A stretch of 64,000 nucleotides of DNA from Escherichia coli (GCF_030384885.1 NZ_CP128613.1), one strand, 5' to 3'; shown: positions 55,301 through 64,000, counted from the stretch's first letter. A program made the numbers.

Positions 55301-58300
55301 CCGCCACCGGGCTACCCAGCACGCCGTTGGTGTTGAATAACAGCGAGCCGTAGTTAGCTCTTCCCTGGCTGGCGGGCAGGAAGAGATCCATATCGCCGTC
55401 ACCATCGAAATCGGCCCATGTCATGGAAACGGATGTCGAGTTCCCCCCCGAGCCGGGACTACTGAGGAAAGTATTGACGGTGTTTTGTCCCCAGACGAAG
55501 GTGCCATTGCCCTGACTTATCAACGATGAGAGGGTGAAGTTGTTGTTCAGGTTGAAAGTGTGCTGAACCAGATCAATTCTGCCGTCATTATTGAGATCGA
55601 CACCGGAACCTTCGTTGAGTGACAGATAACCGGTTACCGCCCCACCGACCGTAGCACTCCCCCCGTTATTAGCGGTGGTGGAGTTGCCTGTCAGGGTGCC
55701 GGCGTTGTTCCACAGGAAGGTATTAGAGTCCGGTCCACCGGCGTCGCCAATCCAGAAATCAAGATAACCGTCGCCCTCTTTATCGAACGCCACAATCGAG
55801 CCATACCACGTCAGGGTGCCAACGTTCACCTGGATGGCGCTGGAAAACGTACCATCGCCGTTATTGGTAAAGCCGTTGATATACCCCGTGCCGTAGTCAT
55901 CGCGAGTAATAAACAGATCGCCCGTACCGTTACGGTTGTAATCGGCGATGGAGCTGGTGGCATAGTTGTTGCCACTTTGCACCAGCGTCAGGGCGGTTTT
56001 CGACCAGGTGAGCGGATCGGTGGATTGCATAATTTGCTGGTTGGCCAGCACTGTCCACATCCCGTGTGTGTCGAGGCCGTAGGTCAGCCCCCATGCGGTG
56101 GATTTGCTGGCGGTGGTCCAGGTCGGTGTGTAATCAATCGCTGCGTTAACCGTTACCGTGCCAGTGCTGACGTTGGCAGTGTTGCCGTTACCCGCCGAGC
56201 TTTTCACCTGCGCGGTGACGTTATAGGCGGTCGCAGACGCCGCCAGCGCGTCGGTATCCGGCAGTTGCACATACCAGGTGTTGTGCGCCGGATCGACCAC
56301 CACCGCACCGCCCGGCTGCGAGGTGTAGGTTTTGCCGTTGATCACCACTTCAACATACTGCCCGCTGGCGAGTGCCGCGGTGAGTACGCCGCTGATAATC
56401 GGCGTGGTATCGCGCGTAGTTTGATTGGTGATTTGCGCAAGCGTCGTCGGAATTGAGGTATCGACCGTCAGAACAAAATCGCTGGAGGAGGTGATATTCC
56501 CCGCCAGATCCACCACACGCGCACTGTAGGTATAGGCACCGCTGACCAGACCACTGTCGCTGTAAGTCCAGTTCAGCGCGCCGACCATCGTTACCGCACC
56601 TAACAGCAGACCGTTACGGTAGAGGTAAACTACTTCACCGCTGGCAAGCGGCGCAGAGAGCACGCCAATGAGCAACGGCGTGGTGTCGTCGGTGGCCTGC
56701 GAATTGCTAAACGTCCCCTGCCGCTGCCCGACATCATCGGTATACGACACAATGGTCGGCGTGGCGGTGGGGTTAATCGTATCGACCACCACCGTTTTCG
56801 ATACCACCGGGCCTGTATTTCCCGCCAGATCCAGCACCCGTACCTGATAAACGTAGCTGCCGTCGGTCAGCGTGCGGCTGTCAGTGTAAGTCCACTGCGT
56901 ACCGTTGGTGGTGAGCGTGGTCCAGGTCGCGCCGCCATCGAGGCTAATCTGCGCCACTTCGCCGCTGGCAAGCCCCGCCCCCAGCGAACCGGTCAGCGTG
57001 AGCGTGGTATCGCTGGTGATAAAGTCGGTGGCCGAACTCCCCGTATCGGTGCTGATGCTGGCGATGGTGAGCACCTGCGCCGGGTTAACGGTGTCAATCT
57101 GCGCCGACTGGCTGCCGGTTGCGCCAACGTTGCCCGCTAAATCAACCACCCGCACCTGCCAGGTGGTGGTGCCGTTGGTCAGCGTACGCCCGTCCACATA
57201 TGTCCAGTTCAGACCGTCTGCGGCAACGGTCACGTTCACCCAGGTTGCGCCGTTGTCGGTACTGATTTGCGCGAACTCATTAGCGCCGAGCGCCGCGCCC
57301 AGCACGCCGCGCACGGTAAGCGTGGTGTCGCTGGTAATAAAATCGCTGCTGCTGGCTCCGGTGTCATCGCTGATACCGGTAATAGTGATGCTTTTCGCCG
57401 CTTCCGGGCCGGTAGTGTCGACCACCACATTTTGCGTCGCGGTCTGCCCGACATTCCCCGCCAGATCCACCACCCGCACCGTGTAGTTCCATGTGCCGTC
57501 GGTGAGCGTGCGACCATCGGCATAGCTCCAGCTGGTGCCGTTAACGGTTAAAGTGGCCCAGGTAACGCCACCATCAAGGCTGATTTGCGCCCGTTCATCT
57601 GCCGCCAGCGCCGCGCCGAGCGTCCCGCGCACGGTCAGCGTAGTGTCACGGGTGACAAAATCGCTGCTGCTTAAACCGGTGTCATCGCTGATGCCCGCAA
57701 TGGTGATGGTTTTGCTCGCCAGCGGCGCGGTGGTGTCCACGGTGACTATCTGGCTGGCGGTCGCGCCGATATTTCCGGCGGTGTCGATCACCCGTACCTG
57801 ATAGTTGTAGTTACCGTCGGTCAGCGTGCGCCCGTCAAGATAAGTCCAGGTTAATCCATTTACCGCCAGATTCTGCCAGGTGGTGCCGCCATCGATACTG
57901 ATTTGCGCGGACTCACCAGCAGAGAGCGCCGCGCCGAGCGTACCACTCACCGCAAGCGTCGTGTCGCTGGTGACAAAATCATTAGTAATCAGACCTGTAT
58001 CGGTGGTGATCGCGCTAATGGTGATGGTTTTCACCGCGGGATCTGGCGCAGTAGTGTCGATCACCACATTCTGGCTATCAGTCGCCCCGACGTTGCCCGC
58101 CGTATCAATCACCCGCACCTGATAGAGATAGTTACCATCGGTCAGCGTGCGGCTGTCGTTATAGCGCCAGGTCGTGCCAGTAACGGTAAGCGTGCTCCAG
58201 GTTACACCGCCGTCGATACTGATTTGCGCCGTCTCGTTACTGGCAAGCGCGGCGGTGAGTGAGCCGTTGACCACCACCGGGCTGACGCTGGTGATAAAGT

Positions 58301-61300: not shown

Positions 61301-64000
61301 TCGTGTTGATCACGTCATCGCCCGCGATGGTGTTGATGCTAATCGCTGGCGCGGTGAGGTTAACGGTGACGGTTCGGCTGGCGTCGTCGCTGTTGCCCGC
61401 CCGATCGCTGACGCTGGCGGTGATGGTCTGTGCGCCGCTACTGAGTGCCGTAACATCCGCCGCCGGTACGCCGACGCTCCAGTTGCCGGAGGCATCCAGC
61501 GTCGTGGTGTAGGTTTTGCCATTGAGCACAACGCTCACCACATCGCCCGCTTCCCCGCCCGTACTGGTACCGGAGATCACCAACGCCTGGGCGTGTTCGG
61601 CGTCGTTAAGGATGTCATCGCCCGCCACGGTGTTAATGGTGAGAACCGGCGCGGTGGTGTCTATCGCCAGATTATGGCTGGCGCTGCCGGGGTTGCCCGC
61701 TTTGTCGTTGACCGTGGCGCTGATGGTGTAATTGCTTGCAGTCAGAGCGCCCAGGGCTGAAGTGGGAACGCTGACGCTCCAGCTACCGTCCGCCTGTACA
61801 TTGCCGGTGTAGGTTGCGCCGTTAAGAGTGACGGTGACCGTCTGCCCGGTTTCGGCGGTGCTGGTGCCGCTGATGGTGAGCGGGTTTCCCGCCTCCGTGG
61901 CGTTAAGAATATCGTCGCTGGCGATGATGTTAATGGTGAGCGTCGGTGCGCTGGCGTCAATGCTGTACGCATGAGTTGCCGACGCGCTGTTGCCGCTCGC
62001 ACTGCTGACACTGGCCTGCACGGTCGCCGCGCCGTCTGGCAGGCTTGCCAAATCCGCCGCCGGAACGTTTACGCTCCAGCTTCCGTTGGCGGCGACGCTG
62101 GCGGTGTAGGTTTTGCCGCCAAAAGTGACGGTAACGGTTTGCCCACTTTCAATTCCGCTGGTGCTGCCAGAAAGGGTCAGATTAGTGCCTTTTTCGGCGG
62201 CGTTAATCACGTCGTCGCTGGCAACGGTGTTGATGCTGATTGCCACCGCCGTTAAATCGACGGTGAACGGATGGCTGACGCTGACCGGGTTTCCGGCGCT
62301 GCTCTGGCCTGTCACTTCAACGGTTAACGGCCCCGCAGGCCATGCGCTGACGTTTGCCGCCGGAATGCCGACGCTCCAGCTCCCGTCTGCCTGTACCGTG
62401 GCAGAATAAGCCACACTGTTGATGGTAACCGTCAGCACAGCACCTGCATTCAGGCCACTACTGCCACCAGTGATCACCAGTGCCTGACCATGCTCGATGC
62501 TGTTGACGATATCATCGCCCGCCACGGTATCCACGCGCAGCCCCGGCAGGTTGGCATCAATGGTGATATCCCGCGTGCCGCTACCGGTGTTGCCATTCGC
62601 GTTGGTGACCGAGGCGGTAATGATCAAATCACCATTTCCCAACGCCTGGAGATCGGCTGCCGGAACGGTGACGTTCCAGCTTAAGTTGCCCTGTACCGTA
62701 GCGGTGTAAGTGTTGCCGCCCAGCGTCACGGTGACTGTATCGCCTGCGGCGGCGCGGGTCACCACCCCGCTGATGGTTTGATCGCCCCCGGCTTCGGCGG
62801 CGTTGATAATATCGTCGCCTGCCACGGGGTTGATGGTGACGCCCGGCAGGCCGCTATCGACCAGTAAATTCGCCTGGCTGCTGGCGGTGTTGCCCGCCGC
62901 ACTGGTGGCACTGGCGCTGACGGTATAGTTGGCCTGGCCTAATGCCGCCAGATCGCTGACAGGCACGGTTAAGGTCCAGTTGCCTGCTGCGTCGGTGGTG
63001 GCGCTGTAATTGTGACCGTTGAGCGTGACGGTAACCTGTGCGCCTGTCGCCAGCCCCGTACTGCTACCGCTAATGGTCAACGGCTGGCCTTTTTCATCGG
63101 CGTTCAGGACGTTATCGCTGCTGATGGCGTTAAAGGTAATGGTCGGCAGCCCGGTATTGACCGTCACCTGATGGGTGGCGCTGCCGCTGTTTCCGGCGGC
63201 GTCAGTGACGCTGGCGTTAATGGTCACCGTGCCGTTTGCCAGTGCCGAGACAACGCTTGCCGGGACACCGACGCTCCAGTTGCCGCTGGCATCCAGCACC
63301 GTGGTGAAGATGCTGCTGCCGATAGTCACCGTGACGGTACTACCGGTTGCCGCGCCAGTGGCGGAACCGCTAATGATCTGCGCCTGGGCGTGTTCCGTCG
63401 CGTTGATCACATCATCGCCTGCCACCGTGTTGATGGTGACGACCGGAACGGAAGTATCCACCGTCAGGTTGTGATTAGCTGAAGACGGGTTTCCGGCTTT
63501 GTCGCTCACCGCCGCGCTGACGGTGTAGTTGCTGGCGGTCAGGGCGCTTAAGTCGGCTGGCGGTACGCTGATACTCCAGCTGCCGTCCGTTTGTACCGTG
63601 CCAGTATAGTTTGCGCCATTGAGCGTGACGGTCACCGTCTGCCCGGCTTCCGCCGTGCTGCTGCCGGTGATGGTCAGCGCCGCACCCGCTTCGGCGGCGT
63701 TAAGAATATCGTCGCCCGCAATGGTGTTAATGGTCACCGTTGGCGCGGTGGCATCGACGCTGTAAGCGTGGGTAGTGGTGGCACTGTTGCCGTTAACGTT
63801 GCTGACGCTGGCCTGCGCGCTGGCATCACCATCACGCAGGGCTGCCATATCCGCCGCCGGAACCGTGGTGCTCCAGGAACCATTCGCCGCGACGCTTGCC
63901 GTGTAGGTTTTGCCGCCAAAGGTCACGGTGACCGTTTGTCCGGCTTCGACGCCGGAAGTGCTGCCGGAGAGCGTTAACGCCGCGCCTTTCTCAGCGGCGT

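What the first reader, a model, noticed from the sequence alone, without database searches (positions are those of the whole stretch)
55350..64000. Nested repeat architecture in the adhesin gene: ~100-aa Ig-like units plus a ~600-aa (~1.8 kb) supra-repeat
Seen in sequence: the translation shows ~100-aa domains (motif T-I-N-T-V-A-G-D-D-I-I-N-A-x-E) repeated more than 20 times. A block of six consecutive domains recurs with a 599-aa period (FGGKTYTA at ORF aa 3, 602 and ~1200). A second ~100-aa repeat class (motif I-S-x-D-T-G, T-L-T-D-G-x-Y) follows before the propeller-like and RTX region. Such near-identical kilobase-scale repeats are recombination-prone and likely cause copy-number (length) variation between strains. 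They also create a misassembly risk in short-read assemblies.
Basis: seen in the sequence. Interest (0 to 1): 0.45.

Follow-up and report, generated by a model that had tools for sequence, protein, structure and literature searches.

The report
Diverged nested repeats in SiiEA adhesin
The region is the last 3,343 codons of the known giant E. coli surface adhesin gene siiEA, whose roughly 100-residue Ig-like domains do recur in blocks of six, but the blocks are old and only 63-71% identical in DNA, so length changes between strains are real but rare.

Summary
The window comes from E. coli 2013C-4282. The finding covers the 3' 10 kb of siiEA, a 21.7-kb minus-strand gene that runs off the window end. 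siiEA is the type I-secreted RTX adhesin of O-island 28 (Z0609/Z0615 in O157:H7).

The nested architecture is real:
- The whole gene has 55 class-A Ig-like domains of 99-101 aa. The window holds 18 complete and 1 partial.
- These domains form a six-domain supra-repeat of 598-599 aa (permutation z = 26.8).
- Five canonical and two degenerate class-B domains follow, then an FG-GAP region, RTX repeats and a T1SS signal.

"Near-identical" is wrong:
- Supra-repeat copies are 59-79% nt identical, and 63-71% inside the window.
- Third codon positions are only 54% identical.
- The longest exact repeat is 24 nt in the window and 34 nt in the gene. TRF finds nothing.

Length variation between strains is confirmed. 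In 18 complete genomes the gene spans 15.7-21.7 kb and holds 35-55 class-A domains. One near-identical allele pair differs by a clean 1,800-nt loss of one supra-repeat, with crossover in a 29-nt identical tract. Nearly all indels lie 5' of the window, they are stable within lineages, and every event seen is a deletion. Misassembly risk is low.

This is a known gene and a known kind of architecture.

The parts
53967..64000 (-). 3' 10,034 nt (3,343 codons plus stop) of siiEA, the 'BapA-related adhesin SiiEA'. The gene continues 11.6 kb beyond the window end. The whole gene is 21,668 nt and is flagged as frameshifted in RefSeq.
   Evidence: Open frame. Identical to NZ_CP027579.1 apart from one SNP in this stretch, with the siiEA annotation. 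The frameshift lies at gene nt ~625, outside the window.
62241..64000 (-). Supra-repeat unit 7 of 9: class-A domains 37 (first 37 nt cut off by the window end) to 42.
   Evidence: Domain segmentation and coordinates. Unit 7 vs unit 8 is 71% nt, and vs unit 9 is 68% nt.
60447..62240 (-). Supra-repeat unit 8: class-A domains 43-48 (1,794 nt).
   Evidence: 300-nt families at spacing 1794/1797 with 66-80% identity.
58653..60446 (-). Supra-repeat unit 9: class-A domains 49-54. Only 49-51 still match their in-phase partners (70-80% nt); 52-54 have drifted out of the period.
   Evidence: Best-partner table.
58353..58652 (-). Class-A domain 55, the last extender of this class. It has no close paralogue.
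56754..58349 (-). Five canonical class-B Ig-like domains of 104-108 aa, 53-66% aa and 62-67% nt identical to each other. O157:H7 alleles have one fewer.
   Evidence: (families D11, D12). Pfam Big_13 gives 6 stretches. Sequence match to Salmonella SiiE BIg50-52, PDB 2YN3, E = 5.8e-8.
56106..56753 (-). Two degenerate Ig-like units, 26-39% aa identical to the class-B units.
54500..56105 (-). FG-GAP/VCBS-type region, presumed to be the propeller-like ligand-binding region. The boundaries are approximate.
   Evidence: Pfam FG-GAP_3: 73 bits, 3 stretches, best at window 55380-55598.
54339..54443 (-). RTX calcium-binding nonapeptide repeats, about four copies.
   Evidence: PF00353 scores 23.8 bits (cut-off 23) when the C-terminal part is scanned alone, and 20.1 bits in the whole-protein scan. 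The sequence GSNFNDTLT GSSGDNQLE GRGGNDTLN IGNGGHDTLL is visible.
53979..54287 (-). Type I secretion C-terminal target domain.
   Evidence: TIGR03661 T1SS_VCA0849, 29.6 bits against a cut-off of 17.6.
51801..53963 (-). T1SS permease/ATPase (ABC transporter), the cognate exporter.
   Evidence: ORF and RefSeq annotation.
50629..51804 (-). HlyD-family T1SS periplasmic adaptor.

Best explanation
The region encodes the distal two-fifths of the extender rod and the C-terminal business end of SiiEA. SiiEA is the giant RTX adhesin exported by the adjacent TolC/ABC/HlyD type I secretion system of E. coli O-island 28.

The extender is a chain of 55 Ca2+-stabilised Ig-like domains. It was built long ago by tandem amplification of a six-domain cassette, about nine copies. 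The copies have since diverged to 59-79% nt identity under purifying selection on the protein. As a result each domain is only about 43% identical to its neighbour, while its true paralogue sits six domains away. By inference from homologous adhesins, the rod holds the class-B domains, the FG-GAP region and the RTX/T1SS signal away from the cell surface.

In present-day E. coli the array changes length only occasionally. The changes are deletions whose crossovers fall in short identical tracts (about 10-29 nt) that encode conserved motifs such as TINTIASDDI, INAAEAG and EAGQT. Events that keep the reading frame and usually the domain register persist and are then inherited stably within lineages. 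No allele examined carries a recent duplication.
For: IDENTITY AND CONTEXT
- The window matches NZ_CP027579.1 with 3 mismatches in the 20 kb compared. The gene is annotated siiEA and flanked by TolC, ABC and HlyD genes.
- NCBIfam adhesin_SiiEA scores 503.9 bits (cut-off 425) on the N-terminus of a close allele.
- The orthologous O157:H7 locus (z0608, z0609, z0615, z0634, z0635) is reported as required for adherence and colonisation, activated by RstA and responsive to Ca2+ (PMC12758282).

DOMAIN KIND
- Ca_tandemer scores 1753 bits.
- Class A matches the MpIBP RII tetra-tandemer, PDB 4P99, at E = 6e-56 over four domains.
- Class B matches SiiE, PDB 2YN3, at E = 5.8e-8.

CASSETTE AMPLIFICATION AND AGE
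- Identity peaks at lags of 6, 12, 18, 24 and 30 domains, at both aa and nt level; z = 26.8.
- The domain-length pattern also repeats with period six.
- Codon positions 1/2/3 are 81/82/54% identical between lag-6 paralogues.
- Orthologous domains between strains are mostly 85-100% identical, while paralogues never exceed 86%. The array therefore predates the divergence of the alleles.

RARE DELETIONS
- The 16 alleles mapped domain by domain are all collinear and show discrete whole-domain gaps of 1, 3, 6, 9, 12 and 17 domains.
- AF60 vs EC21Z-144 is a 1,800-nt deletion with a 29-nt crossover tract and only 4 other differences in 19 kb.
- Other junctions fall at roughly 10-19-nt tracts.
- The two copies in the longer allele are not identical, so the event was a deletion and not a duplication.
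- The longest exact repeat is 38 nt or less in all 12 alleles tested.
Against: - Ca2+ binding, rod geometry and adhesion were not tested here. They rest on homology and on one paper about the O157 orthologue.
- In this strain the gene carries a 1-nt deletion at codon ~209. If that is real, the part in the window is not translated as part of a secreted adhesin.
- Eight of the 18 alleles sampled are disrupted.
- The molecular route of the deletions (RecA-dependent or replication slippage) cannot be told from junction sequences.
- Junction tract lengths other than the AF60 case were read against a parent that is 4-10% divergent, so they are approximate.
- The sample is 18 of about 958 carrier genomes and was not drawn at random.
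Confidence: 0.85

Rival explanations
1. One reading: the 1.8-kb blocks are near-identical, so RecA-mediated unequal crossing-over between them is frequent. The gene would then be a hypervariable, VNTR-like locus and a hazard for short-read assembly.
For: Length does differ between strains. One deletion equals exactly one supra-repeat. Short-read or k=31 assemblies of relatives do break inside such genes: a Pluralibacter contig starts inside the gene, and many E. coli fragments come from short contigs.
Against: - Blocks are 59-79% nt identical.
- The longest exact repeat is 24 nt in the window part and 34 nt in the whole gene.
- TRF reports 0 rows.
- Most indels are not multiples of six domains.
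- The same allele encodes an identical protein in three independent assemblies.
- The O157 genomes sampled share one span.
Confidence: 0.05
2. The repeats are purely ancient relics with no continuing variation. On this view the length classes are old allelic lineages only.
For: Third codon positions are only 54% identical between lag-6 paralogues. Paralogues are less alike than orthologues. Several indels, for example the loss of domains 4-6, are shared by many divergent alleles.
Against: AF60 and EC21Z-144 differ by 4 substitutions in 19 kb yet by a 1,800-nt indel. The AF57/N32, RMDEC465 and 2017-02-2CC deletions sit in allele backgrounds that are otherwise mostly 93-100% identical per domain to full-length alleles.
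Confidence: 0.07
3. The length differences are assembly artefacts, that is, collapsed or expanded repeats in the public genomes.
For: Giant repetitive adhesin genes are often misassembled from short reads (bioRxiv 10.1101/2025.09.30.679566).
Against: The records are labelled complete genomes or chromosome-level assemblies. Exact repeats are 38 nt or less, far shorter than reads. The junctions examined at the sequence level keep the reading frame. The same alleles recur in independent assemblies.
Confidence: 0.03

Closest known systems
E. coli SiiEA / O-island 28 RTX adhesin (Z0609 + Z0615, 'RtxA28/RtxB28'; PMC12758282)
   Same: This is the same gene at the same locus (tolC-siiEA-ABC-hlyD-cueR), about 89-92% nt identical over most of its length, with the same domain order.
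   Different: The O157:H7 allele has 51 class-A and one fewer class-B domains. It is split by a single amber codon at codon 1462 into the two ORFs that the paper treats as two proteins. This strain's allele has 55 domains and a 5' frameshift. The paper text does not use the word 'tandem' and does not mention the six-domain period or copy-number variation in the passages retrieved.
Marinomonas primoryensis ice-binding adhesin MpIBP, region II (PDB 4P99)
   Same: Class-A domains are clear sequence homologues (E = 6e-56 over four tandem domains). They belong to the same Ca2+-stabilised extender family (NF033510) and to the same T1SS RTX adhesin layout.
   Different: MpIBP RII has about 120 copies of an identical 104-residue repeat (PMC4083281). 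SiiEA has six diverged domain types in a cassette, with no two domains above 86% nt identity.
Salmonella enterica BapA and SiiE
   Same: The BapA prefix-like N-terminal domain is present (PF22783 63.8 bits, NF033677 62.3 bits). Class-B domains match SiiE BIg50-52. All are T1SS-exported giant Ig-repeat adhesins.
   Different: The C-terminal module's nearest relatives outside Escherichia found here are in Pluralibacter, Enterobacter and Huaxiibacter (54-60% aa), not Salmonella. The repeat periodicity of BapA and SiiE was not examined here.
Higher-order extender patterns in other RTX adhesins (bioRxiv 10.1101/2025.09.30.679566), and the Enterobacter hormaechei adhesin in L022
   Same: [quoted passage not shown] An E. 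hormaechei giant adhesin shows a 521-aa, roughly five-domain period.
   Different: The cassette here is six domains long and much more diverged than the groups sharing at least 80% identity that the preprint emphasises.
Titin Ig/Fn3 super-repeats (own knowledge, analogy only)
   Same: Both are long chains of Ig-like domains organised in multi-domain super-repeats, so that neighbouring domains are dissimilar and true paralogues lie one period apart.
   Different: Titin is a eukaryotic, intracellular and unrelated protein. No homology is claimed.

Membership tests
BapA-related adhesin SiiEA (NCBIfam NF047714) | N-terminal ~229-aa SiiEA-specific region scoring at or above the 425-bit cut-off | tested here: met
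   503.9 bits on the N-terminus of allele RMDEC465. This strain's first 480 nt are 97% identical to that allele. Here, however, the region lies outside the window and is followed by a frameshift at codon ~209.
BapA-related adhesin SiiEA (NCBIfam NF047714) | Chromosomal context tolC - siiEA - T1SS ABC - hlyD - cueR | tested here: met
   RefSeq annotation of this strain and of the other genomes whose retrieved stretch reaches these genes.
T1SS-exported RTX adhesin (LapA / MpIBP / SiiE / BapA type) | C-terminal type I secretion signal domain | tested here: met
   TIGR03661 scores 29.6 bits against a cut-off of 17.6, at aa 3238-3340 of the window translation.
T1SS-exported RTX adhesin (LapA / MpIBP / SiiE / BapA type) | RTX GGxGxD nonapeptide repeats near the C-terminus | tested here: met
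   PF00353 scores 23.8 bits against a cut-off of 23 on the C-terminal part. This is marginal: the score is 20.1 bits when the whole protein is scanned. About four repeats are visible.
T1SS-exported RTX adhesin (LapA / MpIBP / SiiE / BapA type) | Long tandem array of Ca2+-stabilised Ig-like extender domains | tested here: met
   NF033510 Ca_tandemer 1753 bits in 22 stretches. Big_13 in 24 stretches. PDB 4P99 at E = 6e-56. Ca2+ binding itself was not tested.
T1SS-exported RTX adhesin (LapA / MpIBP / SiiE / BapA type) | [quoted passage not shown] | tested here: met
   Window 51801-53963 and 50629-51804. The TolC gene lies upstream of the gene start.
T1SS-exported RTX adhesin (LapA / MpIBP / SiiE / BapA type) | Surface display and adhesion to host cells | not testable with these tools
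   Reported for the O157:H7 orthologue only (PMC12758282).
LapA-type adhesin under LapG/LapD control | LapG protease and LapD receptor genes beside the adhesin, and an N-terminal TAAG cleavage site | tested here: inconclusive
   No LapG- or LapD-like gene is annotated in the stretches retrieved on either side of the gene. A TAAG motif does occur at about aa 96-99 of the N-terminus. The rest of the genome was not searched.
Hypervariable tandem-repeat (VNTR / contingency-like) locus | Near-identical repeat units at DNA level | tested here: not met
   Units are 58-86% nt identical. TRF reports 0 rows. The longest exact repeat is 24-38 nt.
Hypervariable tandem-repeat (VNTR / contingency-like) locus | Repeat number differs among closely related isolates | tested here: not met
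   An identical 18,975-nt allele is found in UK, Dutch and Czech isolates. Eleven O157-type genomes share the same 9,716-nt span. One within-lineage deletion was found, so change is rare rather than absent.

The most novel reading that the evidence does not exclude
The six-domain cassette is more than a fossil of amplification. On this reading it is a selected structural super-repeat, as in titin. It would keep every neighbouring pair of Ig domains at or below about 45% identity, limiting inter-domain misfolding and recombination, while still allowing a very long rod, and the period might match a geometric repeat of that rod. In present-day E. coli the array would then evolve only by erosion: deletions and pseudogenisation, with no new duplications. 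Neither point appears in the papers retrieved here for SiiEA.
Probability: 0.2. Interest if true: 0.4.

Novelty: already known. Interest (0 to 1): 0.2.

Why it matters
The practical value is mainly corrective.

- **Assembly and stability.** This adhesin gene can be assembled and compared reliably. Its length classes are lineage markers rather than unstable repeats. The window's part of the gene is nearly invariant in domain number.
- **Interpretation of the O157:H7 locus.** The two 'RTX proteins' described for O-island 28 are the two halves of one siiEA gene split by an amber codon.
- **Gene integrity.** Many alleles, including this strain's, are disrupted. This bears on how adherence phenotypes of the locus are read.
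- **Adhesin length.** Intact alleles range from 35 to 52 extender domains, and the 55-domain alleles sampled are all disrupted. This natural series could be used to test whether adhesin reach affects colonisation.

Tried and rejected
- **Tandem Repeats Finder** found nothing, because the units are less than 70% alike and the 1.8-kb period exceeds its limit.
- **First repeat finder** failed on strand syntax.
- **Literature search for 'SiiEA'** gave almost only OCR noise plus one EAEC genomics paper that merely lists the gene.
- **Protein database search** with the C-terminal module returned only fragments of 1,250 aa or less. Full-length relatives could therefore not be screened for the six-domain period.
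- **Contig look-ups.** P0009 was not on record. The Pluralibacter contig and the metagenome contig were too short upstream.
- **Apparent insertions.** The 11.6-11.8-kb 'places' looked like an extra supra-repeat inside the window part. Domain maps of E700025, EC21Z-144 and Z1002 showed ordinary collinear 52-domain alleles, so these were artefacts of joining BLAST pieces at a paralogous offset.
- **AF57/N32 frameshift.** I first suspected their 780-nt deletion caused the frameshift. The deletion is in frame, and the frameshift is a separate 4-nt loss in the tail.
- **Structure prediction** was not run. The sequence match to 4P99 (E = 6e-56) already fixes the fold of class A.
- **Plus-strand ORFs** inside the gene were treated as by-products of a GC-rich repetitive coding strand.

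
Full report
**What is there.**
The window matches the chromosome of E. coli strain 2013C-4282 (NZ_CP027579.1), with 3 mismatches in the 20 kb compared. The finding lies on the minus strand. A single open frame runs from the stop codon at 53967 to beyond the window end at 64000, giving 3,343 codons. RefSeq annotates the whole gene as siiEA, 'BapA-related adhesin SiiEA'. It is 21,668 nt long and flagged as frameshifted. A TolC gene lies upstream, and a T1SS ABC transporter, a HlyD adaptor and cueR lie downstream. 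The frameshift is a 1-nt deletion beside a G-run at gene nt ~625, outside the window. After it, 7,018 codons stay open.

This locus is O-island 28 of O157:H7 (z0608, z0609, z0615, z0634, z0635). A 2025 paper reports that it is needed for epithelial adherence and mouse colonisation, is activated by RstA and responds to Ca2+ (PMC12758282).

**Checking the observation.**
The ~100-aa units are real:
- Pfam Big_13 finds 24 stretches and NCBIfam Ca_tandemer finds 22 (1753 bits).
- A motif scan finds 18 complete class-A domains in the window plus a partial one at the edge. The full gene has 55.
- 'More than 20' therefore overcounts the motif in the window. It is about right only if both domain classes are counted.

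The six-domain period is also real:
- FGGKTYT[AT] occurs at full-ORF aa 3702, 4301 and 4899.
- The best self-offsets are 598 aa and 1794 nt.
- Domain pairs at lags 6, 12, 18, 24 and 30 are 59-65% aa and 66-69% nt identical. All other lags give 43-47% aa and 58-60% nt.
- Shuffling the domain order 2,000 times never approaches the observed contrast (z = 26.8).
- The window holds units 7 (62241-64000, cut at the edge), 8 (60447-62240) and 9 (58653-60446), followed by domain 55. In unit 9 only domains 49-51 still follow the period.

The second repeat class is confirmed. Five canonical units of 104-108 aa lie at 56754-58349, and two degenerate ones extend down to 56106. Downstream come an FG-GAP region, about four RTX nonapeptides and a T1SS C-terminal target domain.

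**What is not there.**
The blocks are not near-identical:
- Pairwise block identity is 59-79% nt across the gene. Within the window it is 71, 68 and 63%, or 69/67/65% when aligned as whole blocks.
- The most similar pair of single domains is 86% identical.
- Between lag-6 paralogues, codon positions 1, 2 and 3 are 81, 82 and 54% identical. Synonymous sites are therefore heavily diverged while the protein is conserved.
- The longest exact direct repeat is 24 nt in the window part, 34 nt in the whole gene and at most 38 nt in any of 12 alleles.
- Tandem Repeats Finder reports nothing.

**Testing the prediction of length variation.**
About 958 of 5,426 complete E. coli genomes carry the gene. I retrieved 18 alleles:
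- Gene length is 15,678 to 21,683 nt, with 35 to 55 class-A domains.
- Every one of the 16 alleles mapped domain by domain is collinear with this strain's gene.
- Orthologous domains are mostly 85-100% nt identical, which is higher than any paralogous pair. The array is therefore older than the alleles.

The differences are discrete gaps:

| Alleles | Gap |
|---|---|
| ten alleles | domains 4-6 missing |
| O157:H7 | domain 28 and one class-B unit missing |
| AF60 | domains 26-31 missing |
| RMDEC465 | domain 19 and domains 23-31 missing |
| 2017-02-2CC | domains 14-30 missing |
| AF57 / N32 | domain 11, domains 16-27 and a 780-nt segment missing |

Only two of these fall inside the window's part of the gene. 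One is the O157 class-B loss of 318 nt. The other is the AF57/N32 deletion, corresponding to about window 62892-63657. That deletion is in frame but out of domain register and leaves a 39-aa remnant.

Apparent 1.6-1.8-kb insertions were artefacts of how BLAST pieces were joined.

**How the changes arise.**
AF60 (18,975 nt) and EC21Z-144 (20,775 nt) share their flanking proteins. They differ by 0 mismatches over 7.4 kb on one side and 4 over 11.5 kb on the other. The only other difference is an exact 1,800-nt gap of six domains, which is one supra-repeat. The crossover lies in a 29-nt identical tract, ACCATCAACACCATCGCCAGCGACGATAT, shared by the in-phase domains 26 and 32.

The two copies in the longer allele are far from identical, so this was a deletion and not a duplication. 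The short allele encodes the identical protein WP_001550748.1 in isolates from the UK, the Netherlands and the Czech Republic. It is therefore not an assembly error, and it is stable once formed.

Other junctions sit in tracts of roughly 10-19 nt that encode EAGQT or INAAEAG, and they join domains of different phase. This explains gaps of 1, 9 or 17 domains.

I infer rare recombination or slippage at short identical tracts, with selection keeping in-frame and mostly in-register products. Whether it depends on RecA cannot be told from the sequences. No allele shows a recent duplication.

**Mechanism of the protein (largely inferred).**
- Class-A domains are sequence homologues of the Ca2+-stabilised extender domains of the Marinomonas ice-binding adhesin (PDB 4P99, E = 6e-56).
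- Class-B domains match Salmonella SiiE BIg50-52 (PDB 2YN3, E = 5.8e-8).
- The N-terminus of intact alleles carries the BapA prefix-like domain and the SiiEA-specific region.

By analogy with these T1SS adhesins, the protein is exported C-terminus first through the adjacent ABC/HlyD/TolC system and is held at the cell surface by its N-terminal module. It uses the Ca2+-stiffened Ig chain to project the FG-GAP region outward. Adjacent domains average 43% aa identity and never exceed 56%. This fits the general idea that neighbouring Ig domains are kept dissimilar, but that is an interpretation and was not tested.

**Comparison with what is known.**
The gene, its secretion system and its role in adherence are already annotated and published. 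Variable extender numbers, repeated pairs of extenders and 'more complex patterns' are described for RTX adhesins of other genera (bioRxiv 10.1101/2025.09.30.679566). An Enterobacter hormaechei giant adhesin that I retrieved shows its own period of 521 aa, about five domains. Nested repeats are thus a common way of building these proteins. The passages of the OI-28 paper that I retrieved do not mention the six-domain period or the copy-number variation, and the word 'tandem' does not occur in it. That detail may therefore be new as description, but not as a kind.

**Verdict.**
- The architecture is real and statistically secure.
- The claim of near-identity is wrong.
- The prediction of length variation is right in outcome but wrong in stated cause and tempo, and it mostly concerns the part of the gene outside the window.
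- The misassembly concern is weak for this gene.
- This is a known adhesin with an ordinary architecture for its class, so interest is low.

Noticed in passing
L001 ~31011 (gene nt ~625; outside the window, ~11 kb beyond its end): This strain's siiEA has a 1-nt deletion beside a G-run (CAGG-CGGGG, against CAGGTGGGGG in RMDEC465) that shifts the frame at codon ~209. If it is real, the 7,018 codons downstream, including everything in the window, are not made as an adhesin. It could also be a homopolymer sequencing error.
   Followed up: partly
L006 and L012 (O157:H7 E32511 and strain 472), gene nt 4384: In O157:H7 a single in-frame TAG at codon 1462 splits siiEA into ORFs of 1,461 and 5,257 codons. 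These correspond to Z0609 and Z0615, which the 2025 OI-28 paper names RtxA28 and RtxB28 and treats as two RTX proteins. RefSeq calls the whole gene a pseudogene with an internal stop.
   Followed up: partly
siiEA in 18 complete genomes (L001-L016, L019, L020): Eight of the 18 alleles are flagged as frameshifted or as carrying an internal stop. Four genomes have a frameshifted secretion-system gene beside the adhesin gene: the ABC transporter in two with an intact adhesin, TolC in one with an intact adhesin, and HlyD in PCN033, whose adhesin is itself frameshifted. One further genome in the hit list has an IS4 inside the gene (H52). The locus looks prone to decay.
   Followed up: no
window 47175, 49983, 62551: The window differs from RefSeq NZ_CP027579.1 at three single bases in the 20 kb compared. 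The one at 62551 changes Ile to Asn in domain 41 (DAILPG in the record, DANLPG in the window). Asn is the residue found in most in-phase paralogues.
   Followed up: partly
window 50629-64000 and the same genes in L003-L015: This strain's whole secretion locus is a minority allele. Its ABC and HlyD genes are 94-98% identical to those of the other strains compared, and its siiEA is about 89-92% identical to the common alleles. Only 17 other genomes of 958 reach 95% or more over window 56000-64000. Alleles such as RMDEC465 are mosaics, with per-domain identity from 83 to 100%. This suggests old allelic lineages reshuffled by recombination between strains.
   Followed up: partly
domain position 15 of alleles L002, L003, L005, L011, L013: In five alleles the 15th reference-position domain matches reference domain 21 (89-91%) better than reference domain 15. 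Both are of the same phase. This may be gene conversion between in-phase paralogues.
   Followed up: no
L004 N-terminus, aa ~96-99 (also in L001): A TAAG motif (FADTAAGGLAP) follows the BapA prefix-like domain, at about the position of the LapG cleavage site in LapA-type adhesins. A Gly/Ala-rich hydrophobic stretch (WGWLAGAAVGGGALGALLASGG) follows it. No LapG or LapD gene is annotated nearby.
   Followed up: no
window 49001-50224 (+): A 407-aa hypothetical protein gene lies between the small YadA-like adhesin cluster and cueR in this strain, 2017-02-2CC and Z0117EC0005. It is absent from LR-60, O157:H7 and others, where an IS4 or nothing occupies the site.
   Followed up: no
L022 1-12067 (Enterobacter hormaechei CP053103.1): A different giant Big_6/Big_13 adhesin gene has a strong 521-aa period, about five domains, with 40% aa identity at that offset. 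A transposase gene separates it from its FG-GAP C-terminal part.
   Followed up: partly
L017 (Pluralibacter gergoviae contig DAOKFD010000055.1): The contig begins inside the homologous adhesin gene, 915 codons from its end. This suggests that the assembly broke in the repeat region of that species' gene.
   Followed up: no
window 1-9300: An integrase gene (intD) and prophage-like yfdR/yfdT genes abut a tRNA-Arg gene, next to the low-GC (43-48%) sfm/fim-type fimbrial operon.
   Followed up: no
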